Of a DNA stretch of 64,000 bases, positions 47,220 to 64,000 are shown one piece after another. Below the pieces are notes generated by a model that saw only the letters and a program-made list of their open reading frames with translations, did not search any database and was not told where the DNA came from. Numbering within the stretch: position 1 is the stretch's first letter; the number at the start of each line of letters is the position of its first letter. This stretch comes from Escherichia phage W22: sequence record PV159336; one strand, 5' to 3'. A program made the translations under genes and the position numbers.

Positions 47220-47287
47220 TCAATTTCCTCCATATTCTTTAGTAGATGGTGATACCTCTGTACCACCATCATAACACAAATTAAGTA

Positions 47288-48139: not shown

Positions 48140-48174
48140 CTGTTTCTCCTTCTTATTTAATCTGTATTAAATTA

Positions 48175-48958: not shown

Positions 48959-48972
48959 CAGATCACCTCAAC

Positions 48973-48993
48973 AAAGCCCCCGAAGGGGCTTAA
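48973..48993 (-). terminator. rho-independent terminator after TerC gene
   Basis: AAAGCCCC-CGAA-GGGGCTT hairpin; T-rich on - strand. Confidence 0.5.
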
Positions 48994-48997
48994 TGAA

Positions 48998-49975: not shown

Positions 49976-49992
49976 TCTTTTCTCCTCTTTAA

Positions 49993-50012
49993 TGCGGAGG
50001 ACAATCCTCCGC
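49993..50012 (-). other. GC-rich hairpin upstream of TerC start
   Basis: GCGGAGGA-CAAT-CCTCCGC stem-loop between 50053 gene and TerC RBS; no T-tract. Confidence 0.3.
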
Positions 50013-50052
50013 TCTATGTCGTATACTATAAACTGTTTTTAAAGAAAGTCAA

Positions 50053-50301
50053 CTAGTTCAGTTCTGTAATTTTAAGTTTATCTTCTTTGTTAATGATAGG
50101 GAAAGCTACAGCATCACCTACATCATCAATAAAGCAAACAGCAAGACCACCTTCCACTTTGCTAACCTGGCCATTAAAGGCGTGATACGGGGCAGGAACA
50201 ATATCTCCATCTTCAAGGAGAATAGCCTCATAAACCTTACCAACAGTACAATCACGAGTGTTTATAAATTTTTCAAGCACTTCAACATTTACTTTACGCA
50301 T
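50053..50301 (-). CDS. hypothetical small protein
   Basis: 82-aa ORF. Confidence 0.35.
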   Translation of the reverse strand: MRKVNVEVLEKFINTRDCTVGKVYEAILLEDGDIVPAPYHAFNGQVSKVEGGLAVCFIDDVGDAVAFPIINKEDKLKITELN

Positions 50302-50315
50302 ATAAAAATCCTCTC

Positions 50316-50522
50316 TTATTTGTTAGATTGAAAGATACCACGAAGTACCGCAAGAATGAACGTCACACAGACTACACTCCAAAACGTTACAGGAACATGA
50401 TGCCAGTCTAAACCGATAATGTCAATCATATAGTTGTATGCTAAAAGCAGTAGCCAACTAGGGATTAACACAATCAAGAATACAACAATAAAACAACCTA
50501 ATACTGCTAAAACACCTGCCAT
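50316..50522 (-). CDS. small membrane protein
   Basis: 68 aa, two hydrophobic helices. Confidence 0.35.
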   Translation of the reverse strand: MAGVLAVLGCFIVVFLIVLIPSWLLLLAYNYMIDIIGLDWHHVPVTFWSVVCVTFILAVLRGIFQSNK

Positions 50523-50531
50523 ACTTTCTCC

Positions 50532-51248
50532 TTATTTCAGTTTGTAAACAATTACATTTAAACCTTTGTTTACTAGAGTTTCTTCGATCATAAGTTTTAC
50601 AATATTCCAAGAACCTCCAGCCAAACCACAACCAAGCATTGGTAAACCTACAATTTTACCGCCTGAAGATACAACATCGTCTCCCATACTATCTAACGCA
50701 TTGTAGATAGCTTCATAATTCAGGTCACGCTTACCTTCCTCACGACGACTATAACCATATTGTCCATATAAATTATAAATTGTCAAATTGTTTTCTGTAT
50801 ACTTAGTAAACGTACCTAATTTTTTATAATCACCACGTTTAGTGGCACAATCTGCTTTAAACGCACCAGGCCACTTGCTTTTAATTTTTGGTGCAATACC
50901 ACTACCCATAGTGCAAAAACAGTTACAGCAGTGTGCTATAGCGTCTATATCGCCTCTCTCGGCTGCTGCTAAAAGATCACCGTATACCTCAATGATACCT
51001 GCTGGATAACTTGTTACAATTTCATCTTCCCAGTACATTTGCTCTACACCACCGATCAGTGCAAAGTTTTGTGTAATGCGATCATCAATATAATTAAGAC
51101 CTGAAACATACACAGCATATTCATCCTGTGCTGTAATGCCTTGTACACGAATTCTTAAGACACCATCTTTATCTGTTGCTACACGCCCAAAATCTTTTTC
51201 TGTAATATTGGTGATAGGATCTCCGAAAGTCGTCACTTTATTAGACAT
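50532..51248 (-). CDS. macro domain protein (ADP-ribose binding/processing)
   Basis: DAIAHCCNCFCTMGSGIAPKI and VGLPMLGCGLAGGSW resemble macro-domain blocks; start taken at internal ATG 51248 overlapping PRTase stop. Confidence 0.5.
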   Translation of the reverse strand: MSNKVTTFGDPITNITEKDFGRVATDKDGVLRIRVQGITAQDEYAVYVSGLNYIDDRITQNFALIGGVEQMYWEDEIVTSYPAGIIEVYGDLLAAAERGDIDAIAHCCNCFCTMGSGIAPKIKSKWPGAFKADCATKRGDYKKLGTFTKYTENNLTIYNLYGQYGYSRREEGKRDLNYEAIYNALDSMGDDVVSSGGKIVGLPMLGCGLAGGSWNIVKLMIEETLVNKGLNVIVYKLK

Positions 51249-52098
51249 AATAATCCCCTTTAACATTAGATTTGTTGATAATGTTGCTTTCAAAAAATTG
51301 ACGCAGGAAATCAAAGTTCTCTTTGTATTTTTCAATATTATTGTAACCTTCTGCAAGGCAACCAAAGAACAGTTGTTCTACATAATACAAAGGAAGTTGT
51401 GAAAGTGCAATTTTAAAATCAACTTCGCTTTGACTCATTAGATACTTAATAGGACGAACCAAACATTTAGCATCAGTTTCTTGCTTAATCATTTTAATAA
51501 AAGCTGCCAGGTTATTGATATAGTTGAAGTTAAGTGCAGCTTCGGTGTTGGCTTCTGTACCTTCATACTTTGCAAAGTACAGGAAAAACGTATCGTTTTC
51601 AACACCTTCTTTGTCTAAAATTTCAATAAGTTTTTCTTCGTGTGTTCCTGTAATATTAACATCATCAATGAAAATCAGAGTTTTATTACCCCAGAAATCA
51701 CGATTGATAGAGAAAGTGTCACCATCGATCAAAGCCTTACGATCTTCTTTGCTAAGAAATCCATAATCATTGATATAACTCACTTTACGATGAACGATAT
51801 CCCACTCTACTGCTTTACCTCCTTTGATAGAGATTAGGTAGTTGAGGTGATCTACAAAATGTTCAGATAACACTGTAGCTGCATTTTTCACATAGTTATA
51901 TGGAGATGGAATAACAACAAAACTTTCATTTACTAGTCGTTCTTCATATTTAGAAAAGAAACTTTCAGCCAGAATGCGTCCCATTCTTTTTGCTGCCTGG
52001 TTACTACCAAACTTTAGTTTGGAATAATCTGCAATGTTAAATTTTGCTTCCTTCAGGTTAGTAAAAGTATTAGCAAAATGTTGAATTTGATTACGCAT
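51241..52098 (-). CDS. phosphoribosyltransferase (type I PRTase fold) domain protein
   Basis: PRPP-binding motif TLIFIDDVNITGTHEE (hydrophobic-DD-hydrophobic-x-TG); 285 aa with uncharacterised C-terminal half. Confidence 0.55.
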   Translation of the reverse strand: MRNQIQHFANTFTNLKEAKFNIADYSKLKFGSNQAAKRMGRILAESFFSKYEERLVNESFVVIPSPYNYVKNAATVLSEHFVDHLNYLISIKGGKAVEWDIVHRKVSYINDYGFLSKEDRKALIDGDTFSINRDFWGNKTLIFIDDVNITGTHEEKLIEILDKEGVENDTFFLYFAKYEGTEANTEAALNFNYINNLAAFIKMIKQETDAKCLVRPIKYLMSQSEVDFKIALSQLPLYYVEQLFFGCLAEGYNNIEKYKENFDFLRQFFESNIINKSNVKGDYYV

Positions 52099-52747
52099 TA
52101 ATAAGTTCCTCTTTTTTAAGTTTAGCCAACAAGTCTTCTGGATTAATAATATGACAGAACTTCATCCCTATGTCAACAGCTTTTCCATCATAAATCAAAC
52201 TATCTCCAACGTGTAAAATCTCCTCTGGTGCGAGATCAAACGTTACCATTTCATCAAAAGAGAGTTTAAAAAACCTAGGATCTGGTTTACACAAGCAAAA
52301 CTCATCAGAAAAATGCATAAAGTCAAATGGTAATTTTGTTAAGCCAGAATATACAGCTAAGAAACTACCTGGTACAAAATTAGTATTGCTCTTAATACTC
52401 AAAGAATAGATTGAACTTAGCTCTTCCAACTTCTTGCAAAGCTCAGGGTTCAATATTGGAGGATGTTTTATAAACATTGCTAAACAGTCTCTTTTTAACC
52501 CATCTACTTTATCAAGATCAATGTTCAAACGAGTAGAAAGTGTTTCCCAAGCATTCCTAGACGTTCCACAAATGCCTTTTTCTGCTTTTAAATCCAGGAG
52601 AGTTTTTACCTCTTTATATACAGTAGCTGCTTCTGCCTCAGAACAAGAGGCATACTCGGCAATAACCTTGTTGCGTTCTTCTGCATACAAAGGATTAGCA
52701 GTAATAAGAGTATTCCATACATCAAAAGAAATATGCTTAACAGTCAT
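52091..52747 (-). CDS. HAD-superfamily hydrolase
   Basis: Motif I HISFDVWNTLI (DxxxT(L), dehalogenase-like variant) and motif IV HVGDSLIYD; start set at ATG 52747 with GGAGGA RBS. Confidence 0.55.
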   Translation of the reverse strand: MTVKHISFDVWNTLITANPLYAEERNKVIAEYASCSEAEAATVYKEVKTLLDLKAEKGICGTSRNAWETLSTRLNIDLDKVDGLKRDCLAMFIKHPPILNPELCKKLEELSSIYSLSIKSNTNFVPGSFLAVYSGLTKLPFDFMHFSDEFCLCKPDPRFFKLSFDEMVTFDLAPEEILHVGDSLIYDGKAVDIGMKFCHIINPEDLLAKLKKEELINA

Positions 52748-52749
52748 TT

Positions 52750-52905
52750 TTAATCCTCCGTCCAAAAGAATATCATCTGCTTAATTTTATTGATCTCTTG
52801 ATGTAGTAACTTTCCAGCATGTGATTGATCTTTAATATTGATAGCAAGAATTTCAAGCTCCGTTAGTTTTTCTTGGATAGCTTTATATTCATCATCTGTA
52901 AGCAT
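52750..52905 (-). CDS. small hypothetical protein (51 aa), not in ORF track
   Basis: ATG at 52905 to TAA at 52750-52752; stop abuts HAD RBS; coiled-coil-like sequence. Confidence 0.25.
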   Translation of the reverse strand: MLTDDEYKAIQEKLTELEILAINIKDQSHAGKLLHQEINKIKQMIFFWTED

Positions 52906-52916
52906 TTTCTTCCCCT

Positions 52917-53120
52917 TTAGAATGGTAATCTTTGTATGTCACTTATCCCCACACCCAGAAGTCTAGCAATATCCTTATCTAAAAGCAACTCTTTTTGTTC
53001 TAAAATGTTAATCAAATCTCCTAATACTTCTTTAATGTCACGATCATTTTTAGCAACGTGACCACCTGCGGTATCAACTTTATCTTTAAAAACAAAATAA
53101 TGATCCATAATACCCTCCAT
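52917..53120 (-). CDS. hypothetical small protein
   Basis: 67-aa ORF preceded by terminator and RBS. Confidence 0.35.
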   Translation of the reverse strand: MEGIMDHYFVFKDKVDTAGGHVAKNDRDIKEVLGDLINILEQKELLLDKDIARLLGVGISDIQRLPF

Positions 53121-53126
53121 ATAAAT

Positions 53127-53150
53127 AAAGGAGGCTTTCGCCTCCTTTTA
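53127..53150 (-). terminator. rho-independent terminator after AAA ATPase gene
   Basis: AAAGGAGGC-TTTC-GCCTCCTTT hairpin then TTTATTTAT on - strand. Confidence 0.5.
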
Positions 53151-53154
53151 TCAC

Positions 53155-54315
53155 TTAGTAAGAACGACCACCAAACACATACTCTGTGTAGTTTTTACGT
53201 TCTTTGTTTTTAATAACAACTTCAATGTTGTTACCTTTATCATCGGTGAACATAAAGTGATAACCGTCACCACCCATTGTACGAATGTGTTTTTCATCAT
53301 ACGTTAGCAAGATACGGTCTACACCCCAGTAGTAGTCACCTTCTTCATCTTTATCTTCTACGGTAACAATCCCTTCCATTTCAGGAAGATGCTCTTCTCC
53401 TGACTTATGATCTACAGCTACAACATAACGATTACCGCTAAACAAACCTTGTGCTGTCATACCGTCAATATCGGTATCTGACGAAACATCTGCTGTACGA
53501 TCTACACCGTTAACTTTCAGAAGTTTAACTTCTTTTGCAGCATAGCGGTGTTCAGTAATACTGATACCCATTAATGCAAGTGCATCAGAGAATTTGTCAT
53601 TAGGATAACGGTTAAGTTCTTCTACTAATGACTGAACAATATCAAAGTTCAAATCCACGGAGAGATTATAAAGCGTTTCAAAATCTGGTAAGAAGGCTTT
53701 GTTCTCCAGATTTTTAGCCAGATAATCATCCATAGTAGCTTTAGGTAGTTTCTTATAACTAAAACTGTAGAAAATACGGCTAGGACGATTACGCAAAAAT
53801 TCTGATACATAACCATCATTTTTAGTCAATACAAACAGCTTGTCATAACCACCAACACCATCCAGCAGGGTAAGCAAACCGTCTTGTGCATCTTTTTCAG
53901 CATACAGTTTATCAAATTCATCGATCATAATCATCACAGGTTGTGTGATTTTAGACATAAAATTGATAAAGCCTTCACCATTAAAAGCACTACCGATAGA
54001 AATAGTAGGAATACCCATTTCACGAAGAGCAGAAGACAGCATTTTAGCTTGCAAAGTTTTACCGCTACCTTTCGTACCCTCAAGGAGAACACCTGTGTTT
54101 TTACCTTTGCGGCTAAGGAACGTCTTGATAATACGTTCTGATTTATCATCAGTATCACCGTATGTTACTGAAGGGACTTCCATATCGTTTTTAGGATACA
54201 GGAAGAACTCGCCACTTTGAGTAACACCTACACCAAAAGTTCCTGCTGGAATTTCTTCAATATCTGTACCAGACTTCTGACGCAGGAAGATTTGATTGCC
54301 GAATACTGTAAACAT
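53155..54315 (-). CDS. AAA+-type ATPase
   Basis: Walker A GTKGSGKT and Walker B VMIMIDEFD; 386 aa. Confidence 0.6.
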   Translation of the reverse strand: MFTVFGNQIFLRQKSGTDIEEIPAGTFGVGVTQSGEFFLYPKNDMEVPSVTYGDTDDKSERIIKTFLSRKGKNTGVLLEGTKGSGKTLQAKMLSSALREMGIPTISIGSAFNGEGFINFMSKITQPVMIMIDEFDKLYAEKDAQDGLLTLLDGVGGYDKLFVLTKNDGYVSEFLRNRPSRIFYSFSYKKLPKATMDDYLAKNLENKAFLPDFETLYNLSVDLNFDIVQSLVEELNRYPNDKFSDALALMGISITEHRYAAKEVKLLKVNGVDRTADVSSDTDIDGMTAQGLFSGNRYVVAVDHKSGEEHLPEMEGIVTVEDKDEEGDYYWGVDRILLTYDEKHIRTMGGDGYHFMFTDDKGNNIEVVIKNKERKNYTEYVFGGRSY

Positions 54316-54335
54316 AGTTTTCTCCTCTATTTAAT

Positions 54336-54806
54336 TTAGTCAGATTCCCAAATGTTGTCTTTCTTAACCCACATTCGTTGATTATCTGAACCTCTATAAC
54401 GTTTCGTTGTTGGTTGATTCATATCATACTTACCATCTATCACTATGTCAACCAGTTTTTTAATTTTCTCTGGAATTTCTTCAAAAAGATATCCTGTATA
54501 TAAGACAATATCTTTTTTGTTTCCAAAACAATCTCTTACCTTCTCAAGAACATACTCTACAGTGTCAATGTTCTCTTTGTCAAGAGGTTCACCACCTAAA
54601 ACTGTTAATCCTTTAATGAAAGGTCGAGATAAATCTTCCAAGATAAGATCTAATGTTTCAGCAGTGAACTCTTGTCCGTAATTATACGACCAGGCTTTCT
54701 GGTTAAAGCAGCCACGGCAACCGTGGCTACAACCGCTCACCCACAAAGAGCATCTTACACCGTCACCGTTGAGCATGTCAACAGGTTCATATCCGGCGTA
54801 ATTCAA
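54336..54806 (-). CDS. nrdG: anaerobic ribonucleotide reductase activating protein (radical SAM)
   Basis: CSHGCRGC (CxxxCxxC) near N-terminus; 156 aa; overlaps NrdD stop. Confidence 0.8.
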   Translation of the reverse strand: MNYAGYEPVDMLNGDGVRCSLWVSGCSHGCRGCFNQKAWSYNYGQEFTAETLDLILEDLSRPFIKGLTVLGGEPLDKENIDTVEYVLEKVRDCFGNKKDIVLYTGYLFEEIPEKIKKLVDIVIDGKYDMNQPTTKRYRGSDNQRMWVKKDNIWESD

Positions 54807-56602
54807 AAATGTTTCTCCCTTTCTAGTACCTCTTGCATTTTACCTTTGTTATAAGGGCGAGAGTTAGGGGCAGAAAGGTATCCTGACACTCTTCTGATCA
54901 CAGATATGGATTCTTCTTCATGATTACCACAACTTGGACACTCGAAGCCTTTAGCTGTTGCCTTAAATTCACCATGAAAACCACATTTGAAACACTGATC
55001 TACAGGTTGGTTCACGCCAAAATAAGGAATTTTATTGTAGGCATAATCTACAAGAGTTTCCAGTGCTTGCAAGTTATTTTTAAGGTTTGGTGTTTCTACA
55101 TAACCTATGTTCCCACCATTACTAATTTGTGCAAAACCTTCCTCATAATCCCACTTTTGGAACGGGGTAGTGTGCATCCATACAGGTTGATGGAAAGAGT
55201 TTGTCAAGTAGTCACGATCAATAGAGCCAGGATAGCGATCATTTAACGCTTTGGCAAATTTATAGCACAAGGATTCTGCTGGTGTTCCATACAAACTAAA
55301 AGCTAAACCAGAACGTTCTTTAAATGTGCAACAGATATCCTTCATATATTGAAGGATGTTTTTACCCATTGCTTTTGGATTGGTGTTATTTGGGTATAAA
55401 ATCTCCATAGCTTCTGCTAAACCTACATAACCGATACTAATAGAGGCATAACCACCTTCAAATAGTTTACCAATCTCTTCATTAGCTTCTAGTCGAGCTA
55501 AAGCACCTTCCATAAACAATGTAGGGTTTTGAGATGCTTTGGTATGTCTAATACGGTTAACACGTAGCATATGTGCCTTATACGCCATCTCCATATGTTG
55601 TTCCAACAGTTCAGTAAATAAGATGCCCTTTTCACGGGACTCTGCTGCAATGATAGGTAAGTTTAAAGAAACTACGCCTAAGTTGAAACGACCATCATAT
55701 TTTTCACCTTGCTCTGTTGCATAGTATGACAAGAAACTACGGCAACCCATGCTTGTGACGCGACCATCTGAAGATCCTGTAACTTCTTTGTTTAAAGGTA
55801 CAGAGATAAAATCAGGATAAATGCGTTCAGCACAACACTCCATTGCCAGTTGCTTCAAATCATAGTTTGGATCGCCAGCTTTCATGTTAACACCATCTTC
55901 CAAGAAGAAGATAACTTTAGGAAACACAGGAGTTACCCTATCTTTTCCTAATCCTTGTTTGTGCACCATTAGGTAGTTTTTAGTGATCATTCTACCAAAA
56001 GCAGAGGTATCCAAACCTAAACTAATTGTTATAAAAGGTGACTGACCATTTACACTCATTAGAGTGTTCACCTGGTAGATTAAAGTTTGCATTGCATCAT
56101 AGACCTGTTTATCTACCATACGCATAGCAATATCATAATCGCCAACATCGGCATATATTTTATTAAAACTTGCTTTAACGTATTGACTAAGCCCAGTATC
56201 AACATGTGCACAAGTTTGTCCACCATATTGGCTAGAGGCTACTGCTTGAATAATTTGAGTTAGGACAGTAGTCGCTACACCGATAGATTTTGGTTTTTCA
56301 ATATGTGCATTACCAATACGGAAACCGTTCTCAAGCATATCTTGGTAATTTACCAGGCAACAATTAGTTAAAGGTGAGAGTAAATAATCTAAATCGTGAA
56401 TGTGACCATACCCACTTTTATGCCATTCTGCTAAATCTTCAGGTAAAATATGGGTCATTGCCATGTGCTTGCTTAGGATACCTGCTAGTAAATCTCGGTG
56501 AGTATTAACAATCATTGCAGGTTTGTTTGCATTTTCACGAGTAAATTCTTCGGATGTTTGTTCGAGGAATCCGATTACATCCTCATATAGTTTTTGGGTC
56601 AT
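54803..56602 (-). CDS. nrdD: anaerobic ribonucleoside-triphosphate reductase (class III)
   Basis: 599 aa; C-terminal Zn ribbon CFKCGFHGE...CPSCG and glycyl-radical motif RVSGYL. Confidence 0.85.
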   Translation of the reverse strand: MTQKLYEDVIGFLEQTSEEFTRENANKPAMIVNTHRDLLAGILSKHMAMTHILPEDLAEWHKSGYGHIHDLDYLLSPLTNCCLVNYQDMLENGFRIGNAHIEKPKSIGVATTVLTQIIQAVASSQYGGQTCAHVDTGLSQYVKASFNKIYADVGDYDIAMRMVDKQVYDAMQTLIYQVNTLMSVNGQSPFITISLGLDTSAFGRMITKNYLMVHKQGLGKDRVTPVFPKVIFFLEDGVNMKAGDPNYDLKQLAMECCAERIYPDFISVPLNKEVTGSSDGRVTSMGCRSFLSYYATEQGEKYDGRFNLGVVSLNLPIIAAESREKGILFTELLEQHMEMAYKAHMLRVNRIRHTKASQNPTLFMEGALARLEANEEIGKLFEGGYASISIGYVGLAEAMEILYPNNTNPKAMGKNILQYMKDICCTFKERSGLAFSLYGTPAESLCYKFAKALNDRYPGSIDRDYLTNSFHQPVWMHTTPFQKWDYEEGFAQISNGGNIGYVETPNLKNNLQALETLVDYAYNKIPYFGVNQPVDQCFKCGFHGEFKATAKGFECPSCGNHEEESISVIRRVSGYLSAPNSRPYNKGKMQEVLEREKHF

Positions 56603-56620
56603 TAATCCTCCGTGGAAAAT

Positions 56621-56645
56621 AAAAGCCAGCTTAATGCTGGCTTTA
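56621..56645 (-). terminator. rho-independent terminator upstream of nrdD
   Basis: AAAGCCAGC-TTAAT-GCTGGCTTT hairpin then TTTTATTTT on - strand, followed by GGAGGA RBS. Confidence 0.5.
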
Positions 56646-56691
56646 GGGTGGATCTTTATTTTAAATCTTTTTCGTAAGATTGTCCTTGATC

Positions 56692-57642
56692 TTAGTCAAG
56701 GTTTTTGGTAATACGTGTACAACCGTCAGAAGTCAAACCGTCAACTTGAGTTTCCCAAGTGCCATGAATATTTCGGAACAATGTTGTTACACCTTTTGGT
56801 TCATTAATAATGATTGCCATAACAAGTTTAGGATCGATAACAGACATAATCTTTTCCTCAATACCCTCTGTAATAACATTATTGCGCACAATATTAATTG
56901 CATCTTCTTGTACAGTAAGAGCACTTACGTTCTTAAGAGTATATACCTGCTGTGTAGTGTAAATGATACGAACATAACTTACAGAACGAGTAGGCACAGG
57001 TTTACGCGGTCGGCGAAAACGTGATTTTGGTGAAGATTCAGTCTTACTTTCATGTTTTGAATAATACTCCTCAAACAGTTTAGTAAATGTTTTTACATCA
57101 ACTACAAACCGATCTTTCCGGTATGGAGAATTCTTATGTGCACCATTAATACCACTGTTTTCATCGAAGAAAGTAATGTTTTCTTCAGTTGAATACATTA
57201 GATAATGATCTGCATTTTTCCAATGTGGTTGTGGACAACGAGAATTACAAACGGAAAGCAGATAATTAATATTTTCTTCCGTGGCCTCAGTATCCAGGAA
57301 ACACGTATTATGCACAGTCAGTTGTACTTTTTCAGCCATATCTTTTTCTTTATCCTCTTTAGCAAGATATTCAGTACGAATAATCTCCAGAAAACCTTCA
57401 GGTGTTACTTCCATAAATGTATATTCAGGATGAAGTTCCATATATTCAAATCCACAACCATCTAATTGCTGTAGAAAGTTAGGGTAGAAGAACAAATCAT
57501 TAACACTGTGAATCAGATCATTGATTTCTGCTTCAGTTGTGTAACCAAAACTCTTGTGAATTGCTTCGTTAAGAACATGCAGGATACCCATCTCTTCTGC
57601 TGCTTTTTTAACTTCCAGTTTATTAGCGTAAAATGCAATCAT
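56692..57642 (-). CDS. hypothetical protein
   Basis: 316-aa ORF, no recognisable motif. Confidence 0.4.
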   Translation of the reverse strand: MIAFYANKLEVKKAAEEMGILHVLNEAIHKSFGYTTEAEINDLIHSVNDLFFYPNFLQQLDGCGFEYMELHPEYTFMEVTPEGFLEIIRTEYLAKEDKEKDMAEKVQLTVHNTCFLDTEATEENINYLLSVCNSRCPQPHWKNADHYLMYSTEENITFFDENSGINGAHKNSPYRKDRFVVDVKTFTKLFEEYYSKHESKTESSPKSRFRRPRKPVPTRSVSYVRIIYTTQQVYTLKNVSALTVQEDAINIVRNNVITEGIEEKIMSVIDPKLVMAIIINEPKGVTTLFRNIHGTWETQVDGLTSDGCTRITKNLD

Positions 57643-57659
57643 TATGTTTTCCTTCTAAA

Positions 57660-58094
57660 TTAGTTTAAAATTTCTTTTGCAATGGTAGAAGCAAGTTTTC
57701 CATCGTATTGATTCGGATACTCTGCTTTAAGGTGTTTCATCATATCTGGCATTTTCTTGCCTGTCAAGGCAAATTCTTCAGCAATAGCTCGAAGATCATC
57801 TTCAGATAGCATTTCTGGCAAATATTTTTCCAGAGTGGTGATATCACGCATAGCTCGCTCACATTTGCTAATGGAGGCATTAACTTTCTTAAGCGAGTCT
57901 AGTTCCTCTTTAGCGTGTGCAATACCAATCTTAACAATGTTAATCATAATATCGTCTTCTGATTTGTTTAGATTTGCCTTTTGAGTACGAGCAAGGTCAA
58001 ACTCACCAATAATATTAGTTAACAAAGCAAAAGCACCCTTATCGGTTGTACGTGCTAAGATACGATCTGCTTTCATTTGTGTCACAATAGACAT
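57660..58094 (-). CDS. GatB/YqeY-domain protein
   Basis: 144 aa; helical; central LEKYLPEMLSEDDL and overall pattern resemble YqeY/GatB C-terminal domain. Confidence 0.45.
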   Translation of the reverse strand: MSIVTQMKADRILARTTDKGAFALLTNIIGEFDLARTQKANLNKSEDDIMINIVKIGIAHAKEELDSLKKVNASISKCERAMRDITTLEKYLPEMLSEDDLRAIAEEFALTGKKMPDMMKHLKAEYPNQYDGKLASTIAKEILN

Positions 58095-58106
58095 TCTATT
58101 CTCCTC

Positions 58107-58679
58107 TTATTTGCTAATGCTTTGAATGTTATTTACAACACGGTTTATTGCCAGTGAAGCCCTAGGCTCCGCAATACCTGTTGCATAGATATAAGGATGA
58201 CCTTTTGGAGACTCCCTCATACCGAATGAACCTAATTCTAAACCATATTCATCCTCTACGTCAACCCCAATATTAGTGGGTACTAAATATGTTTTAACTC
58301 CATAATAAGTAGAGAAGAAACAGCGCATAGCGTTAGCATACTCTTCAATTGTAGCATCAGGGTAGAACTCAATCAACTCCAATTTCAAGAAAATATTAAA
58401 ATGGGTATCATCTAAATTTTCTTCTGTACGGTAACATGGCGTTAGTGCCATATACGGATTACCTGCTGCAAATTCAAAACCATCCTTCTCCATTTGCAGG
58501 AAAGATTGTTCTGCACTAGCTACATAGTATTTACCGTTAGGATGCCCTAATGGGCGATCCTCTTTATTTTCTGGTAGTGTGTACGCCAGTATATCAGCAT
58601 CCACGAGATATGGAACTTCCAACATTTGTGCAAACCGACCATAGTAATCAATAGCTTGAGCTATTACTGCAACATTCAT
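58107..58679 (-). CDS. class II aminoacyl-tRNA synthetase-like minimal catalytic domain, tentative
   Basis: Motif-2-like CYRTEENLDDTHFNIFLKLELIEFY and motif-3-like ATGIAEPRA; only 190 aa. Confidence 0.3.
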   Translation of the reverse strand: MNVAVIAQAIDYYGRFAQMLEVPYLVDADILAYTLPENKEDRPLGHPNGKYYVASAEQSFLQMEKDGFEFAAGNPYMALTPCYRTEENLDDTHFNIFLKLELIEFYPDATIEEYANAMRCFFSTYYGVKTYLVPTNIGVDVEDEYGLELGSFGMRESPKGHPYIYATGIAEPRASLAINRVVNNIQSISK

Positions 58680-58927
58680 GATCGACCTCCATTGCGGAAT
58701 GCACGTTTAGTAATGTTTGACATAGTGATCAAATCTTGAAGCGTCATATCAGGAAAATGCTGTTCAAGAACACCTTCAACAGCGCCTACAATATCTGATA
58801 ACTCAATAAGTTGCATCAGCTTGCAATCTTGATCAATAGCATCTTGAAGTTCATAAAGCTCTTCTTGAATCTTAGCAACAGAACCATATTCCTCTTTGCT
58901 AATCTCCTTCAAATGATACCCTGCCAC
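58676..58927 (-). CDS. MazG-like nucleotide pyrophosphohydrolase, tentative
   Basis: 83 aa all-alpha; EELYELQDAI...LIELSDIVGAVEGVLEQ resembles MazG/HisE-type NTP-PPase helix pair. Confidence 0.35.
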   Translation of the reverse strand: MAGYHLKEISKEEYGSVAKIQEELYELQDAIDQDCKLMQLIELSDIVGAVEGVLEQHFPDMTLQDLITMSNITKRAFRNGGRS

Positions 58928-58937
58928 TTTAACCCCC

Positions 58938-61712
58938 TTAGTTTACCAGTTTATTTATGTCTGGTAAAAGATTTATTTCACCTAAGAAATCACCTTCACC
59001 TTCCTCTAGCCAACTCTCATATGCTTGTGCATGATTATAGTTACCATCAAAAGAATCTGCAACAAATTTTTCTACAGTTTTTCGAGATGTGCCAGCGCCA
59101 AATACACCAAGTTTAATACCATTGATCGGTAAAGTAGGGCTTGTTGGTACTTTCTCTGTTGCAACACGGTTGATATCTATAATCTCCTGTACGGTTGTAT
59201 TCCATTGTAAGCATTTAACACAACGGGTGTGCGCTACATACAGTAGGTTTCGCTCTGCCTCTTCTAGTCCTACCCATTCACCAGTCTTTTTATCATAGTT
59301 GGAAGGAAAATCATTAGCAACAATAACCTGATCCCACTCCAAACCTTTAGACTTATGTGCTGTAGTCAGTGTGACTTTTGCTGTAGGAGAATTTCTATGC
59401 GTTCTAAGTGTATGTGCTATAGTGTTTGCCTTACCAGAAACTACAATGTTTAACAAGCGTTTAGCATCTGGATCAGCCTCTGCACACTCAACAAATTCAT
59501 TCCAGTCTGCGTAAGGTAATACAGTTTCATGTTTTACTTTCTCAATATCTCCTCTCCGAAGAGCATTAACACTATCTACCATAGAGATAAAATCCCTGGT
59601 ATCTACGTTAATAATAATTTCTTCCCCATCTGCAATACGATCCATTGCCTCCATAAGCAAGGTTAAATTCTTGCGAAAGATGATAGTGTAAGGTTTTGTA
59701 TAGTCTACAACATCTGATTTGTAGCTACCTACTACAGTATCAAAGCCTTTACCAACCAAAGGATGACGCAAAGGTTCTTTATCACTTAAAATCATATTCG
59801 CAATGTTTGCCACTTTGGGGCCAAAACGGAAGCAAGCAGTTAATGGAAGCTCTGCCCCATACTTAGCTGTTTCAATCATCATATTAGAGCTACCTCTAAA
59901 TTGATAAATGCAGTTATGGCTAAGAATTTCATTGCCAAAGAAGTTAGCAGTATCCTCTACTTCAATATCATAATAGATACCATCACTATCTACAATGTCC
60001 ACAATTTCTTCTGCCGTTACAGTATCACCATCTTTTACTAACACAGACATGCCTTTAAACAAACCCGCTGCCGGAATTAAATTATATTTGGCAGTGTTCA
60101 CAGAGGACATGCATTCTTTTAAAGATGCAAACGGAACTATTTCAAGGATCTTTTGTGCAAAACTCAATGCTTCACGATAAGAATTGAAATATTTACGTAC
60201 ACGGTAACGACCTTCCAATTTAGCAACACTTACGCTTACACCTGCTTCAATGAGTGAGGCATAGATTGGCATTTCACTTTCTGTCCACTCAAAGCTAACT
60301 TGTGTTCCTTTACAACCTTGTGCTCGCAAAGTCACTGTTAACATTTTTCTTGCATCTACTGTACAATTGATGCTGTGCCAATGTGGATAAGCAAAATGAT
60401 AATCTTTATCCTCTAAAAGTTTAAAACCATTTTGTCCGAATTGTTCAAAGATATTGTTGATCCTTTCTTGATTAATACCGCGTGAACTTGCCTCAAATAC
60501 ACAAGTAGGAATGCCATATTGTAAACTGTATGCCATTTCTTTTTCCATAGCAGCTTCACGGTTTTCAACAATATCCAACACCCACAACTTCTGTGCTTTT
60601 TCAGAACGTGTACGTTGCCCCAGTTTAGAAAAACCTTCTTTATCATCGAATTTGTTAGTGATCCCTACTCGGAAACCTAAATCTTTTCTCCACATTAGGT
60701 ATACCACCATCTGATCATCTTTCAGAACATAAGGTGAAGCCCAAATACGATGGTTATGTGTCATATCTAAAGTCTTACCTTTAGCAGTAATAATATTCCT
60801 ACCTTTTGTACGTGTAGATAAAGTTTTATTTGTTACTTTTCTAAATGTAACTTTACCGTTAGAATAAGACTCTACCTTATCACCGATTTGCAGGTCTTTC
60901 ATTGTAACCTGACCATTTTCGGTATTAAGTACCGTGTTTTCTGACACACATTGGAATTCATCACCAACTACCACAATTTGTTTGGCAGATTTAGCATTCC
61001 GCAGAATAGACAAGAATGCAGGGTTAACATCCTGGAATTCATCCCCAAAAATAATGTCATAACCAAGATCAGCACCAGACAATTCAAACAATTTTACATA
61101 GGTGTCATGCGTCATCAAAGTATCTGTGTTAGGGTCAATGCGCTCTCGCCACAATTGTTTTGCATACTTAACTACTTCTGTAATTAGTTTGTGTTCGTTA
61201 ATACCTTTTCTTTTAATATCTGCAAGATGTACACTAGGAAAATGTTTACGGCTGATAAAAGGATCATCCGAAAATTCAAACTTACCTACGGTTTGCTTGA
61301 TCATTAAACCAATCATAGCACGAGTTAAAAGTGTTTTCCCTCGTTTATCAATAAGATTATTAATCTTAAATTTCTTTGCTATCTCACTACCTGTACCTGC
61401 AACGTTAACATACTGTCCTTCTGGTCGTGACAGTTTTGCACGTAAACGATGATCCAGGAATTGATAGCAAATGGAATGCAATGTACGGCATTCTACATTT
61501 GGTGGCATCTTACGCCGTGCTTCTTCTGCCATGCTTTTATTGAAAGCTAAGTAAAGAATGCGATCTTCTGTACTGTTAGCCAGCAAATAAAGTGTTGACG
61601 TTTTTCCTGATCCAGATTTAGCTTGGATAGTTAAAAACCGATGATCTGGAAAAGCCTCCTTAATAGCTGTTTGCTCTTCTGTTGGAGTAAAACTCAACTC
61701 TTTCTTAGCCAT
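58938..61712 (-). CDS. UvrD/PcrA/Rep-like SF1 DNA helicase, intein-containing
   Basis: Walker A AKSGSGKT, motif II FGDEFQD, split motif III VVGDEFQ / CIYQFRGSS, motif VI TAHKSKGLEWDQV; start moved to ATG 61712. Confidence 0.75.
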   Translation of the reverse strand: MAKKELSFTPTEEQTAIKEAFPDHRFLTIQAKSGSGKTSTLYLLANSTEDRILYLAFNKSMAEEARRKMPPNVECRTLHSICYQFLDHRLRAKLSRPEGQYVNVAGTGSEIAKKFKINNLIDKRGKTLLTRAMIGLMIKQTVGKFEFSDDPFISRKHFPSVHLADIKRKGINEHKLITEVVKYAKQLWRERIDPNTDTLMTHDTYVKLFELSGADLGYDIIFGDEFQDVNPAFLSILRNAKSAKQIVVVGDEFQCVSENTVLNTENGQVTMKDLQIGDKVESYSNGKVTFRKVTNKTLSTRTKGRNIITAKGKTLDMTHNHRIWASPYVLKDDQMVVYLMWRKDLGFRVGITNKFDDKEGFSKLGQRTRSEKAQKLWVLDIVENREAAMEKEMAYSLQYGIPTCVFEASSRGINQERINNIFEQFGQNGFKLLEDKDYHFAYPHWHSINCTVDARKMLTVTLRAQGCKGTQVSFEWTESEMPIYASLIEAGVSVSVAKLEGRYRVRKYFNSYREALSFAQKILEIVPFASLKECMSSVNTAKYNLIPAAGLFKGMSVLVKDGDTVTAEEIVDIVDSDGIYYDIEVEDTANFFGNEILSHNCIYQFRGSSNMMIETAKYGAELPLTACFRFGPKVANIANMILSDKEPLRHPLVGKGFDTVVGSYKSDVVDYTKPYTIIFRKNLTLLMEAMDRIADGEEIIINVDTRDFISMVDSVNALRRGDIEKVKHETVLPYADWNEFVECAEADPDAKRLLNIVVSGKANTIAHTLRTHRNSPTAKVTLTTAHKSKGLEWDQVIVANDFPSNYDKKTGEWVGLEEAERNLLYVAHTRCVKCLQWNTTVQEIIDINRVATEKVPTSPTLPINGIKLGVFGAGTSRKTVEKFVADSFDGNYNHAQAYESWLEEGEGDFLGEINLLPDINKLVN
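59913..60950 (-). mobile_element. intein (346 aa) inserted in helicase motif III
   Basis: Starts Cys (CVSENTVLNTENG), block B TLDMTHNH, C-terminal YYDIEVEDTANFFGNEILSHN followed by extein Cys. Confidence 0.55.
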
Positions 61713-61713
61713 T

Positions 61714-62190
61714 TCAACCTCTCTTAATTTGTTTAACAAGCATAGGAACAAAATCTCGTTTTAAAATTTGTTCAATAATATGATCAGGTAGCTGTTGGAA
61801 ATTATAATTAAACGCTACTGTTTCACCTTTAGGTGTTTCTACCCGCACATATAACATGTTGCGAAGTTTATCCACTTGTGCTGTATATTCTAAACCACGT
61901 AATTGATGCATTGCAAACATCAAATCATCAGTTTCAGTTTGGAATCTATCCCTTGTCTGCATCAAGGATAAGGCAAAAGGTAGATTTTCCCTAAGAGCCA
62001 CCTTCTTAGGCACTAGTGAAGGGAAATACTCCCCAATAACTTCCTGTGTAAGCTGAATACACTCTTTTTCAAGCTGGTTTTGTTCCTTGAGTTCACAAAC
62101 ACTTTTTTGTAAAGTGTTAACCTCTTTTTGCAAAGCTGCTAGTTGAGCACTTAACTTTCTTTTTTGATTACGACCGAAACGTTTAGACAT
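61714..62190 (-). CDS. hypothetical coiled-coil protein
   Basis: 158-aa ORF; stop overlaps helicase start. Confidence 0.4.
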   Translation of the reverse strand: MSKRFGRNQKRKLSAQLAALQKEVNTLQKSVCELKEQNQLEKECIQLTQEVIGEYFPSLVPKKVALRENLPFALSLMQTRDRFQTETDDLMFAMHQLRGLEYTAQVDKLRNMLYVRVETPKGETVAFNYNFQQLPDHIIEQILKRDFVPMLVKQIKRG

Positions 62191-62198
62191 ATTTCCCC

Positions 62199-62714
62199 CT
62201 AGTAAAACCCCTTAACAATTTGTATTAACTCGGCACAACGGTTGACCAACTTTTCATCGTACAATACACGTTGTGGCATATGTTGTATAATATACTCCAT
62301 TTGCTCATGCCATGTCCACTTTTCTTTTTTGTCTGGGATAACATCACTAGCACGAGAATTATCTTTTAATGTTTGTATAATCCAATTACTTGGAAAGTGC
62401 TCTCCACCTTTCTTAAATGGTTTATAGTGGCCTAGAGTGAATTGAGAATCCCCTGTTAGAGCACCCAATTTATTTAGATGGATAATCAAACTACGAAACA
62501 CATAATATTCATAGATGTTATCCACCGTATAGCAAGCATAATATTTCAAGATACCCTTATCTCGCGGATACTTACCAACATCCAGATTACACCAGTTGAC
62601 ATTTTCTGGATCATAGTGGTGTTCCTTAAGCCATATTTCTCTTTCATCAAAGTCTGGATATATTACCGCCCTACTTACAGAGTCAACAAGTGGAGATTGA
62701 GCATCAAAAAACAT
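62199..62714 (-). CDS. hypothetical protein
   Basis: 171-aa ORF. Confidence 0.4.
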   Translation of the reverse strand: MFFDAQSPLVDSVSRAVIYPDFDEREIWLKEHHYDPENVNWCNLDVGKYPRDKGILKYYACYTVDNIYEYYVFRSLIIHLNKLGALTGDSQFTLGHYKPFKKGGEHFPSNWIIQTLKDNSRASDVIPDKKEKWTWHEQMEYIIQHMPQRVLYDEKLVNRCAELIQIVKGFY

Positions 62715-62736
62715 TATATTTTTCCTTATTGGTTTA

Positions 62737-63102
62737 TTAAACGTTTTCTAAATCTTTTAAGGCATTACCCAACGTTAGAACAATAACATCGTTTGCTGCC
62801 TCTTCCCCATTGATATTGGTGAAATTTGGTGTGACAAAAGTAACCATATAAAACTCGTCCACCTGGAAGACAGCAATAACACCGTCCATCTTAACATCTT
62901 GACGAAAGGAAAAACCAATCATCTTCTCTTGCAAAGGCATATCCCCTTCCTTCATTACTGCCAGGGAGTTTTCAGGAATGTTATATTTATCTGCTCCGAT
63001 GTAGATGTACGTAATGTTATCTTTATCGTGATGATACAGGGTTGCTTTTTCCATATCTAAACCTGACAGATCAAATACGTTAATTTCTTGTGTAGTCTTC
63101 AT
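62737..63102 (-). CDS. hypothetical protein
   Basis: ORF track 62737..63177; ATG at 63102 with GGAGGA RBS preferred. Confidence 0.35.
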   Translation of the reverse strand: MKTTQEINVFDLSGLDMEKATLYHHDKDNITYIYIGADKYNIPENSLAVMKEGDMPLQEKMIGFSFRQDVKMDGVIAVFQVDEFYMVTFVTPNFTNINGEEAANDVIVLTLGNALKDLENV

Positions 63103-63466
63103 AAATATCCTCCCAAATCCAATAATCATCTGTGTAAGTAGGATGCCTTTTATCCCACTCTGTTCTAGCCCAAGCAACCGCTGCTACCAATACATCACCA
63201 TGACAAGGTTGAGGTGAGCAGAAGCAAACTAAGTCTTTCCCTTCTAATTCTAACAAATCCTCAAGAGTGATTTTACCACAACGAATTTGTTCCCACAACC
63301 ACTCTTTATATCTTTGTATAGTTGATCCTCGTGGTTCATCATCCTTTAACTTAAAAGGATTTGCAAACTTTGAGGCTTTTAACCCCATATGAGGCATAGC
63401 TCTGCCAATGTACACTGCACCTTCAGGTATTACTTTACCTAAATGGTAGAAATTTAATACTTTCAT
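63080..63466 (-). CDS. DUF4326-like protein
   Basis: Motif KDLVCFCSPQPCHGDVL resembles DUF4326 core (C.C.P..CHgdvL); ATG 63466 coupled to upstream stop. Confidence 0.4.
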   Translation of the reverse strand: MKVLNFYHLGKVIPEGAVYIGRAMPHMGLKASKFANPFKLKDDEPRGSTIQRYKEWLWEQIRCGKITLEDLLELEGKDLVCFCSPQPCHGDVLVAAVAWARTEWDKRHPTYTDDYWIWEDIYEDYTRN

Positions 63467-63467
63467 A

Positions 63468-63818
63468 TTAACCCAAACACATCTGTGCAATCAAGCCCTG
63501 TATAAATTTATTAGCTTCTTTACTGTCGTAATCAGTTTCTTCTGGATATCCATCTTCATCGTACACAACTGTACCTTCAATATACCCTGCCTCAATTAAG
63601 GCACGGATCATATCAAATTGCCAGCATGAGTTACCAAATGGACGTTTACCATTAAAACACTCTTCTTCTCTCCATAACGTAGAGAGTAGTTGTCGGAAAT
63701 ATTCCCGTACAGTGACAGTACCAAGATCTGAATCCTCAAACATAACATCCAGGGCATCAGGATTGCTTTTCTCTACATAAGGAATATATTTAACACCATT
63801 AATAGTTACATCAAGCAT
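63468..63818 (-). CDS. hypothetical protein
   Basis: 116-aa ORF with AAGGAG RBS. Confidence 0.4.
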   Translation of the reverse strand: MLDVTINGVKYIPYVEKSNPDALDVMFEDSDLGTVTVREYFRQLLSTLWREEECFNGKRPFGNSCWQFDMIRALIEAGYIEGTVVYDEDGYPEETDYDSKEANKFIQGLIAQMCLG

Positions 63819-64000
63819 TTATTTCTCCTTATCATCATATTCTAGGAACATATCTGCACGATATGCTTTACGCTCTTCAAACTTAGCAGGATCTACAACA
63901 ATAAGCAATACAAGGTTAACATCTAAATACTTCTTAACAAATAGAAATAAATCTTTTCCACAGTTAAAACCTACACCAGTATAGGCATCCCCATATTGAT
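63819..64000 (-). CDS. hypothetical protein, 3' portion only (gene begins beyond window end)
   Basis: Open frame ending TAA at 63819-63821 overlapping next start (TAAATG); C-terminal ...AYTGVGFNCGKDLFLFVKKYL... Confidence 0.3.
   Translation of the reverse strand, partial: QYGDAYTGVGFNCGKDLFLFVKKYLDVNLVLLIVVDPAKFEERKAYRADMFLEYDDKEK

What the first reader, a model, noticed from the sequence alone, without database searches (positions are those of the whole stretch)
57660..58679. Adjacent GatB/YqeY-like protein and truncated class II aaRS-like core: possible tRNA-directed or amino-acid-ligating function
58107..58679 carries a class II synthetase motif-2-like element (YRTEE...THFNIF...LELIEFY) in only 190 aa, and the next gene encodes a YqeY/GatB-type helical domain, which in established knowledge is appended to tRNA-handling enzymes. 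Together with the minimal nucleotidyltransferase at 31856..32470 this hints at a phage tRNA repair or modification capacity, or an amino-acid ligase acting on a non-tRNA substrate. Assignments rest on short motifs only.
Basis: inference. Interest (0 to 1): 0.55.

Follow-up and report, generated by a model that had tools for sequence, protein, structure and literature searches.

The report
Mini synthetase paired with pyrophosphatase
The pair belongs to a large, uncharacterised enzyme family found in big phages, giant-virus-like contigs and ultra-small bacteria and archaea.

Summary
Both ORFs exist, on the minus strand. 57660..58094 is a real YqeY-family protein: Pfam is above its cut-off and PDB 1ng6 matches at E=1e-4.

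The YqeY adjacency is confined to Justusliebigvirus and a few Klebsiella relatives. The conserved partner is the 83-aa ORF at 58676..58927, which overlaps the synthetase-like gene by 4 nt. It is HisE/MazG-like, lies on the same strand in 81 of 84 loci, has a matching distribution in cultured phages, and is fused to the core in 65 proteins, in both orders.

The family has about 1,600 clusters at 50% identity. In CPR and DPANN genomes the fused gene abuts a small radical-SAM gene in 6 of 9 genomes and lies near canonical SerRS in 3 of 9. In phages it often sits in tRNA arrays, near RNA-repair genes or near nucleotide-metabolism genes.

I found no paper on it. Best reading: a two-component, adenylate-forming amino-acid ligase that acts on a nucleotide-type acceptor. 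The acceptor is unknown.

The parts
58676..58927 (-). 83-aa HisE/MazG-like (all-alpha NTP pyrophosphohydrolase) protein, here called p83. It is the conserved partner of the mini-synthetase. It has a GTG start, and its stop overlaps the ATG of the next gene by 4 nt.
58107..58679 (-). 190-aa minimal class II aminoacyl-tRNA-synthetase-like catalytic core, derived from SerRS. It has no tRNA-binding arm and no anticodon-binding domain.
57660..58094 (-). 144-aa YqeY (GatB_YqeY) protein. It is a lineage-specific insertion downstream of the core, probably co-transcribed with it. An SD sequence (GAGGAG) lies in the 12-nt spacer.
   Evidence: It matches Pfam PF09424 at 30.3 bits against a 27-bit cut-off, phrog_1460 at E=1.5e-36 and PDB 1ng6 YqeY at E=1e-4. 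It is absent at this position in phAPEC8. It is next to the core only in L001, L005 and L006. The spacer sequence is shown.

Best explanation
Proposal. The functional unit is the translationally coupled pair 58676..58927 (HisE/MazG-like p83) plus 58107..58679 (mini class II core). It is not the core plus YqeY.

The core is a SerRS-derived, probably dimeric, catalytically competent enzyme. It binds ATP and one conserved small alpha-amino acid (serine-like, identity unproven) and forms an aminoacyl-adenylate. It has no anticodon-binding domain or tRNA-binding arm, and its motif-2 loop is cut down. It therefore cannot select a tRNA the canonical way. It would pass the activated amino acid to an acceptor presented or processed by its partner.

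The partner is a pyrophosphohydrolase of the kind that converts a nucleoside-5'-triphosphate-type substrate to the monophosphate plus PPi. I therefore propose that the pair makes or processes an amino-acid/nucleotide conjugate. The acceptor would be either a free nucleotide or the terminal nucleotide of a tRNA or other RNA.

In this phage genus a YqeY protein, a known tRNA-binding module, was added directly downstream and may recruit tRNA in trans.

What is shown: the fold, the motifs, the invariance of catalytic residues, the coupling and fusion of the two genes, their distribution and their neighbourhoods. What is inferred: catalysis, the amino acid, the acceptor and the role of YqeY.
For: Core identity and catalytic residues.
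- hhalign maps the family-invariant residues onto SerRS residues that are identical in all three SerRS sequences used. These are S55/E57 on the T-x-E loop, C82/R84/E86 on motif 2, H93/F97/K99/E101 on HQF-K-E, D140, E148/S151 on the E-x-S-x-S segment (SerRS E350/S353), and T167/R173 on motif 3.
- Most of these positions are identical in 310-311 of 311 relatives. H93 (289 of 311) and D140 (308 of 310) are nearly so, and position 86 is E or D in 302 of 311. A non-catalytic scaffold would not be expected to preserve them.

Partnership with p83.
- p83 is on the same strand in 81 of 84 loci. It is directly upstream in 53 (most often a 4-nt overlap) and directly downstream in about 12.
- Among the proteins held, 63 are core-p83 fusions and 2 are p83-core fusions.
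- Record counts per host genus in cultured phages are almost identical: 262 records for p83 and 272 for the core.

p83 as a HisE/MazG-type enzyme.

Nucleotide or RNA-end context.
- tRNA genes lie within 6 kb in 18 of about 77 phage loci. In about 8 of them the pair is embedded in a tRNA array, less than 0.7 kb from a tRNA.
- RlaP is present in 13 of 84 loci and a CCA-adding enzyme in 5 of 84.
- RNA ligase, PTH2, Thg1 and an exoribonuclease occur among immediate neighbours, as do RNR, ThyA and DHFR.
- Canonical SerRS lies 0.9-5 kb away in 3 of 9 CPR/DPANN genomes.
- A radical-SAM gene most like the NTP-using MoaA and viperin abuts the fused gene in 6 of 9.
Against: - No biochemistry exists for any member.
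- The motif-2 loop is about 8 residues shorter than in SerRS and lacks the second loop arginine. By my own residue count, the position matching the SerRS serine-hydroxyl-binding Thr is W or Y. So serine specificity, and even efficient ATP use, are uncertain.
- The neighbourhoods are heterogeneous. No third gene is conserved across phages.
- The tRNA-proximity enrichment has no proper null, because whole contigs were not available.
- Nothing shows physical contact between the two proteins apart from the fusions.
Confidence: 0.45

Rival explanations
1. Free-nucleotide pathway module. p83 converts a normal or modified (d)NTP to the monophosphate, as MazZ does for PurZ or T4 gp56 does for dCMP hydroxymethylase. 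The class II core, acting like asparagine synthetase A, then adenylates a carboxylate and ligates it to, or on, that nucleotide. In CPR and DPANN genomes a radical-SAM enzyme supplies the modified NTP. No RNA is involved.
For: - To my knowledge, the characterised HisE/MazG/dUTPase-type enzymes act on free nucleotides.
- The core lies directly upstream of NrdD/NrdG in Stephanstirmvirinae.
- In Acinetobacter T4-like phages it lies between the genes annotated nrdC.10/nrdC.11 and gp49/NrdH/gp55.
- RNR, ThyA and DHFR occur among immediate neighbours.
- In cellular genomes the adjacent radical-SAM gene is most like MoaA or viperin. nrdR is divergent upstream in 3 CPR genomes. An AAA_28 gene (by my reading, a nucleoside-kinase-like family) sits directly upstream in L095. 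ThyA, DHFR, uridine kinase and NDK lie nearby in L087.
Against: - No canonical NrdR box was found in the nrdR-rSAM intergenic regions.
- From memory, phi92-like phages are not known to carry hypermodified DNA.
- This reading does not explain the embedding in tRNA arrays or the SerRS linkage.
Confidence: 0.25
2. The mini core and the adjacent YqeY together form a split, anticodon-independent tRNA aminoacylating or repairing enzyme, with YqeY supplying the missing tRNA-binding domain.
For: - YqeY domains increase tRNA affinity when appended to GlnRS, and they form the tRNA-binding tail of GatB (PMC1865053 and PMC2811023, listed).
- The two genes are 12 nt apart with their own SD sequence and no terminator between them.
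- The tRNA-related context of the family in other phages is consistent with a tRNA target.
Against: - The adjacency exists only in Justusliebigvirus and a few Klebsiella relatives.
- 81 of 84 loci, including phAPEC8, lack YqeY near the core.
- YqeY occurs in many phages that lack the core, such as Vibrio, Sinorhizobium and T5-like phages. In Caulobacter phage CcrBL9 it lies 44 kb from the core.
- So YqeY cannot be required for the family's function.
Confidence: 0.12
3. Protein-modifying ligase of the EpmA/EpmB type. The class II core transfers an amino acid onto a lysine of a protein. The amino acid may first be rearranged by the radical-SAM partner in cellular genomes. The target could be a translation factor such as EF-P or aIF5A, or p83 itself.
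For: - The precedent is EpmA (PoxA/GenX), a truncated class II paralogue that works with the radical-SAM enzyme EpmB. This rests on my own knowledge.
- A radical-SAM gene is adjacent in 6 of 9 cellular genomes.
- aIF5A lies 2.4 kb upstream in L089.
- p83 is a small protein that is always adjacent or fused, as carrier and acceptor domains often are.
Against: - Phages carry the pair without the radical-SAM gene.
- The conserved residues of p83 are those of an NTP-PPase active site, and its invariant Lys sits in the family's K-x-x-E-E motif.
- The Ser in its E-L-S-D motif is not invariant, so it is not a phosphopantetheine carrier.
- The radical-SAM protein (228-256 aa) matches the EpmB model only weakly (E=0.0016). 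It matches MoaA and viperin better.
Confidence: 0.07
4. Non-catalytic role. The core is a regulatory or decoy subunit, like HisZ or pol gamma B, or a nucleotide or tRNA sponge used against host defence.
For: - HisE acts on PR-ATP, the product of the HisG-HisZ enzyme, which gives a class II-like plus HisE-like precedent (my own knowledge).
Against: - The residues aligned to ATP-, Mg- and amino-acid-binding positions of SerRS, together with the metal motif of p83, are essentially invariant across 311 and 44 sequences respectively. From memory, HisZ and pol gamma B have lost these residues.
- No HisG homologue was seen in any neighbourhood examined.
Confidence: 0.05

Closest known systems
Bacterial-type seryl-tRNA synthetase (class IIa), catalytic domain
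   Different: The core is 190 aa, against about 420-450 aa for SerRS. It has no N-terminal coiled-coil tRNA arm. Its motif-2 loop is about 8 residues shorter, and most surface loops are trimmed. The position I match to the serine-OH-binding Thr is W or Y. It is obligately paired or fused with a HisE-like protein. A profile of the family does not pull in canonical synthetases from 1.84 billion proteins: 1,595 hits, and the best 150 listed are all 167-274 aa.
Amino acid:[carrier protein] ligases (Bll0957/Atu2573; SerRS-like, tRNA-independent)
   Different: Those enzymes are about 300 aa and, as I recall, of the methanogen zinc-dependent SerRS type. Their neighbour is a phosphopantetheinylated carrier protein. 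Here the neighbour has a HisE/MazG fold and motif and no invariant Ser.
EpmA (PoxA/GenX) with EpmB
   Different: EpmA derives from LysRS (class IIb) and is about 325 aa. It has no NTP-PPase partner. The radical-SAM protein here matches the EpmB (lysine aminomutase-type) model only weakly.
HisZ / HisE of histidine biosynthesis
   Different: HisZ is HisRS-derived, has lost catalysis and needs HisG. Here the catalytic residues are invariant and no HisG is nearby.
MazZ-PurZ (Z-genome phages) and T4 gp56-gp42
   Same: These follow the same logic: a small all-alpha NTP pyrophosphohydrolase supplies a nucleoside monophosphate to an adjacent ligase or modifying enzyme. This is from my own knowledge.
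   Different: Their partner enzymes are of unrelated folds. No DNA modification is known or shown here.
YqeY / GatB C-terminal domain
   Same: The 144-aa ORF is a member: Pfam is above the cut-off and 1ng6 matches at E=1e-4.
   Different: It is free-standing and phage-encoded, and its adjacency to the core is specific to one genus.

Membership tests
Class II aaRS catalytic-core superfamily | Antiparallel beta-sheet core fold | tested here: met
Class II aaRS catalytic-core superfamily | Motif 1 (helix-strand with invariant Pro), motif 2 (fRxE...F.K.E) and motif 3 (GxGxxxxR) | tested here: met
   P23 is present in 293 of 311 relatives. R84, F97, K99 and E101 are present in 311 of 311. T167 and R173 are present in 310 of 310. 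They align to the SerRS motifs.
Canonical seryl-tRNA synthetase | N-terminal coiled-coil arm that binds the tRNA(Ser) variable arm | tested here: not met
   The protein starts at the catalytic domain. hhalign covers SerRS columns 182-406 only. The best family members listed are 167-274 aa long.
Canonical seryl-tRNA synthetase | Full-length motif-2 loop and the serine-hydroxyl-binding Thr before motif 3 | tested here: not met
   There is an 8-residue deletion in the loop. The position I map to that Thr is W in 172 and Y in 115 of 310. The mapping rests on my own residue count, so treat it as approximate.
Canonical seryl-tRNA synthetase | Charges tRNA(Ser) | not testable with these tools
   This needs an aminoacylation assay.
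Amino acid:[carrier protein] ligase | Adjacent phosphopantetheine carrier protein with an invariant Ser | tested here: not met
   The adjacent protein has a HisE/MazG-like fold. The Ser of its E-L-S-D motif is replaced by C or A in several members.
HisZ | Loss of catalytic residues and association with HisG | tested here: not met
   The catalytic residues are invariant. No HisG was seen in the neighbourhoods examined.
EpmA/EpmB system | LysRS-type core plus a lysine-2,3-aminomutase-type radical-SAM partner | tested here: not met
All-alpha NTP pyrophosphohydrolase (MazG/HisE) superfamily - 83-aa partner | EExxE...ExxD metal-binding motif on a helical bundle | tested here: met
All-alpha NTP pyrophosphohydrolase (MazG/HisE) superfamily - 83-aa partner | Pfam PRA-PH or MazG model above the curated cut-off | tested here: not met
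   The window protein scores 15 bits against a 21.3-bit cut-off. 37 of 44 members hit PRA-PH, all below threshold, best E=2.9e-4.
YqeY / GatB_YqeY | Pfam PF09424 above the curated cut-off, and similarity to a solved YqeY | tested here: met
   It scores 30.3 bits against 27. PDB 1ng6 matches at E=1e-4 and 8xjg at E=0.01.

The most novel reading that the evidence does not exclude
The pair, which is a single fused protein in CPR bacteria, DPANN archaea and giant-virus-like contigs, is an unrecognised ancient two-domain enzyme. Its roughly 180-aa natural minimal class II synthetase would activate an amino acid and transfer it, without anticodon recognition, to a nucleotide or an RNA 3' end handled by the HisE-like domain. 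In cellular lineages it would work together with a new radical-SAM enzyme. That would make it a new aminoacyl-nucleotide or RNA-end chemistry, and the closest natural counterpart of the engineered class II 'urzymes'.
Probability: 0.2. Interest if true: 0.85.

Novelty: new variant of a known kind. Interest (0 to 1): 0.6.

Why it matters
Truncated synthetase paralogues such as EpmA, HisZ, AsnA, the aa:carrier-protein ligases and GluQRS have repeatedly turned out to carry unexpected chemistry.

This family is large, about 1,600 clusters at 50% identity. It has no Pfam or NCBIfam model. In GenBank it is labelled inconsistently as 'seryl-' or 'histidyl-tRNA synthetase'. It occurs in many well-studied phages, including phi92, phAPEC8, the BASEL collection, Acinetobacter T4-like phages and Caulobacter phiCbK-like phages.

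At about 180 aa with all three motifs, it sets a natural lower size limit for a class II active site. That bears on models of how synthetases originated.

Its strict coupling to a HisE/MazG-type pyrophosphohydrolase, and to a radical-SAM enzyme in genome-reduced CPR and DPANN organisms, points to a pathway nobody has described. That pathway is easy to test, because the phages and the host are standard laboratory strains.

For annotation, the current product names should not be propagated.

Tried and rejected
- Single-sequence searches of the core against PDB found only a chance FGF hit. Against NCBIfam there was nothing. Against Pfam, class II models reached only E=0.13. Only profiles and structure gave signal.
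- p83 as a carrier protein was rejected. It has a HisE-like motif and fold, and its Ser is not invariant.
- YqeY as a conserved partner was rejected.
- I asked whether the phAPEC8 462-aa gene after the core is a fusion of YqeY with the 316-aa ORF. It is not. It is homologous to the 316-aa ORF only.
- The window nucleotidyltransferase at 31856..32470 is not an RlaP homologue (no hit at E<=10).
- The cellular-type radical-SAM gene is not general in phage loci. Only weak hits were found, in L016 and in the L058 group.
- Membership of the cellular operon in the NrdR regulon was not supported. The canonical NrdR-box consensus, with up to 3 mismatches, is absent from the nrdR-rSAM intergenic regions of L094 and L099. 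This is inconclusive, because CPR boxes may differ.
- No third gene is conserved across phage loci by all-against-all clustering or by a Pfam scan of 150 immediate neighbours.
- No second paralogue of either gene was found in the window.
- No tRNA genes were found in the window.
- Seven literature searches found nothing on this family.
- The afdb50 fold library was unavailable.
The complex or a natural fusion could therefore not be modelled, and model coordinates cannot be inspected here.

Full report
**Origin and layout**

The window is a phi92-like E. coli myovirus of the genus Justusliebigvirus, subfamily Stephanstirmvirinae. The region 56600..59000 is 99.8% identical to Serratia phage KKP_3264 and 98.8% identical to BASEL phage Bas62.

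All genes here are on the minus strand, in this order:
- an intein-containing UvrD helicase, 61751..58938
- an 83-aa ORF, 58927..58676
- the 190-aa ORF, 58679..58107
- the 144-aa ORF, 58094..57660
- a 316-aa ORF, 57642..56692
- a strong terminator-like hairpin
- NrdD and NrdG

The 83-aa and 190-aa ORFs overlap by 4 nt. The 190-aa and 144-aa ORFs are 12 nt apart, with a GAGGAG Shine-Dalgarno sequence between them.

The 144-aa ORF passes the Pfam YqeY gathering cut-off (30.3 bits against 27). It also matches B. subtilis YqeY, PDB 1ng6, at E=1e-4.

The 190-aa ORF is invisible to single-sequence searches. Three other tests identify it:
- A 35-member profile hits SerRS at E=5e-5, then AspRS and PylRS.
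- hhalign against three SerRS sequences gives 93.6% probability over the whole catalytic domain.

All three class II motifs are present. The residues that align with the SerRS ATP, Mg and amino-acid ligands are S55, E57, R84, F97, K99, E101, E148, S151, T167 and R173. They are identical in 310-311 of 311 relatives.

The protein therefore consists of a class II active-site domain and nothing else. It has no tRNA arm and no anticodon-binding domain. Its motif-2 loop is about 8 residues shorter than in SerRS.

**The conserved partner is not YqeY**

In a Vibrio phage relative there is no YqeY next to the core. Instead, an 84-aa gene 54% identical to the window's 83-aa ORF sits directly upstream with a 1-nt overlap.

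I collected 80 viral loci with a family profile. I added four loci fetched earlier, called ORFs and searched them iteratively. The results for the 83-aa family (p83) were:
- It is on the same strand as the core in 81 of 84 loci.
- It is directly upstream in 53 loci, with a 4-nt overlap as the commonest arrangement.
- It is directly downstream in about 12 loci.
- It is fused to the C-terminus of the core in 6 loci.
- YqeY is present in only 3 of the 84 loci, all close relatives of the window.

A database search with one fused protein returned 414 relatives.

In cultured phages the two genes have nearly identical distributions: 272 records for the core and 262 for p83, with matching counts per host genus. 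YqeY has a different distribution, with 151 records that include Vibrio, Sinorhizobium and T5-like phages.

In phAPEC8 the core is 77% identical to the window's. There it is followed directly by a homologue of the window's 316-aa ORF, with no YqeY. YqeY is therefore a genus-level insertion.

**What p83 is**

Its alignment shows invariant K19, E22, E23, E26, E42 and D45. This is the EExxE...ExxD motif of all-alpha NTP pyrophosphohydrolases. Y4, H5, T73, F77, G80 and R82 are also invariant.

- 37 of 44 members hit Pfam PRA-PH (HisE), all below threshold.
- A profile search of PDB weakly finds a MazG-like protein and HisE.
- Some GenBank annotators have already called it 'MazG-like' or 'phosphoribosyl-ATP pyrophosphatase'.

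The invariant N- and C-terminal residues lie in lower-confidence regions of the model outside the three helices, most clearly at the C-terminus. In the fusions only about 13 residues separate the motif-3 arginine from the G-Y-H motif. It is an inference that these tails approach the class II active site.

**Size and spread of the family**

A profile search of 1.84 billion representative proteins found 1,595 clusters at E<=1e-3 and 1,073 at E<=1e-30. The best 150 listed are all 167-274 aa. The search did not bleed into canonical synthetases.

Hosts include:
- many 140-580 kb phage contigs
- giant-virus-like contigs, namely P0111, P0180 and a GVMAG
- genomes of CPR bacteria (Woesebacteria, WWE3, Saccharibacteria)
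- genomes of DPANN archaea (Woesearchaeota, Nanoarchaeota), mostly as the fused form

**Context**

Across phages no third gene is conserved. Two themes recur.

The first theme is tRNA and RNA ends:
- tRNA genes lie within 6 kb in 18 of about 77 loci. In about 8 of them the pair is embedded in a tRNA array.
- RlaP nucleotidyltransferases occur in 13 of 84 loci and CCA-adding enzymes in 5 of 84.
- RNA ligase, PTH2, Thg1, an exoribonuclease and dual-specificity phosphatases occur among immediate neighbours.

The second theme is nucleotide metabolism:
- NrdD and NrdG lie downstream in Stephanstirmvirinae.
- In Acinetobacter T4-like phages the pair lies between genes annotated nrdC.10/nrdC.11 and gp49/NrdH/gp55.
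- RNR, ThyA and DHFR occur among immediate neighbours elsewhere.

In 9 distinct CPR and DPANN genomes:
- The fused gene abuts or overlaps a 225-256-aa radical-SAM gene in 6. The radical-SAM gene can be on either side. Its sub-threshold matches are led by MoaA and a tungsten-cofactor maturase, and include viperin and NrdG.
- nrdR is divergently adjacent in all 3 CPR genomes that have the radical-SAM gene.
- Canonical SerRS lies 0.9-5 kb away in 3. By a rough estimate about 0.1 would be expected by chance.
- An AAA_28 gene (by my reading, a nucleoside-kinase-like family) precedes the operon in L095.

Canonical NrdR boxes were not found. The tRNA-proximity enrichment is uncontrolled, because whole contigs were not available.

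**Interpretation**

The near-invariance of the residues aligned to SerRS catalytic positions argues that the core still forms an acyl-adenylate from ATP and one conserved alpha-amino acid. Position 163, which I map to the serine-binding Thr of SerRS, is W or Y. Serine is therefore only a guess.

The obligatory coupling, and the repeated fusion in both orders, with an apparently active HisE/MazG-type enzyme argue that the two active sites handle the same or successive substrates. The characterised members of that superfamily that I know of act on nucleoside-5'-triphosphate-type compounds.

I therefore commit to a two-component amino-acid/nucleotide ligase. Its acceptor would be a nucleotide, either free or the terminal nucleotide of a tRNA or other RNA (confidence 0.45).

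The rivals, in order of confidence, are:
- a purely small-molecule nucleotide pathway of the MazZ-PurZ kind (0.25)
- an EpmA/EpmB-like protein modifier (0.07)
- a non-catalytic HisZ-like or decoy role (0.05)

In this phage genus YqeY may add tRNA binding in trans, but the family as a whole does not need it.

**Comparison with what is known, and novelty**

The core works like, and descends from, SerRS. It fails the membership tests for canonical SerRS, aa:carrier-protein ligases, HisZ and EpmA.

The genes are already present in public records under inconsistent putative names. PHROGs calls the family 'histidyl tRNA synthetase', and GenBank records call it 'putative seryl-tRNA synthetase'. Seven full-text searches found no study of the family or of its coupling to a HisE-like protein. 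That library does not cover subscription journals.

I rate it a new variant of a known kind, the non-canonical synthetase paralogues. Interest is 0.6. The size of the family, its minimal architecture, the strict two-gene or fused organisation and the radical-SAM link in CPR and DPANN are surprising and easy to test. The function itself remains inferred.

Noticed in passing
window 58938..61751 (-): The UvrD/Rep-family helicase is interrupted by an intein. Pfam Intein_splicing and Hint hits cover residues about 267-613. Bas62 annotates it as an intein-containing precursor.
   Followed up: partly
window 56692..57642 (-): A 316-aa ORF lies between YqeY and NrdD. PHROGs (phrog_15930) labels it 'ribonucleotide reductase', but it has no significant Pfam match (best E=0.13) and no NCBIfam match. 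A 462-aa homologue, 45% identical in the C-terminal part, overlaps the end of the mini-synthetase gene in phAPEC8. It may be a lineage-specific member of the same operon. A strong terminator-like hairpin follows at 56644..56622.
   Followed up: partly
window 50532..52765 (-): Three overlapping genes form a cluster. Bas62 annotates them as a macrodomain protein, a phosphoribosyltransferase (phrog_13415, function unknown) and a HAD-like hydrolase. The combination suggests ADP-ribose or NAD metabolism, possibly a counter-defence function.
   Followed up: no
It is not related to the RlaP nucleotidyltransferases that recur next to the module in other phages. An HNH endonuclease gene abuts it.
   Followed up: partly
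phage records MG065639, MG065645, MG065656, MG065689: Four records named 'Campylobacter phage' with host C. jejuni are 98.9% identical to E. coli Justusliebigvirus phages over this region. They are probably mislabelled or contaminant genomes.
   Followed up: no
phAPEC8 protein K7QJG2 (BFVD hit): A 190-aa phAPEC8 protein with only 19% identity matches the mini-synthetase model at TM 0.73 and E=1e-10. It appears distinct from the annotated 185-aa phAPEC8 homologue (77% identical to the window core). It may be a second, divergent class II-like protein in that phage. The window has no second paralogue by HMM search.
   Followed up: partly
L056 10956..11030; L059 4111..4503: One phage contig carries a tRNA with a CUA (amber-reading) anticodon, which ARAGORN calls tRNA-Pyl. 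Another carries a tmRNA gene. Both lie within a few kb of the module.
   Followed up: no
L085/L094, L099, and the contig carrying P0123: In three CPR bacteria nrdR is divergently adjacent to the radical-SAM plus fused-gene operon. The intergenic DNA has AT-rich palindromes such as CTATATATAG, but nothing matches the canonical NrdR box with up to 3 mismatches.
   Followed up: partly
L092 4357..4980 (Acinetobacter phage AM101 orf118): In T4-like Acinetobacter phages the p83 homologue is 207 aa. The HisE-like part occupies residues 1-80 and is followed by a C-terminal extension of about 125 aa of unknown nature.
   Followed up: no
window 1..64000: Cumulative GC skew rises until about 27-28 kb and then falls. 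This matches a switch from plus-strand to minus-strand genes near that point.
   Followed up: no
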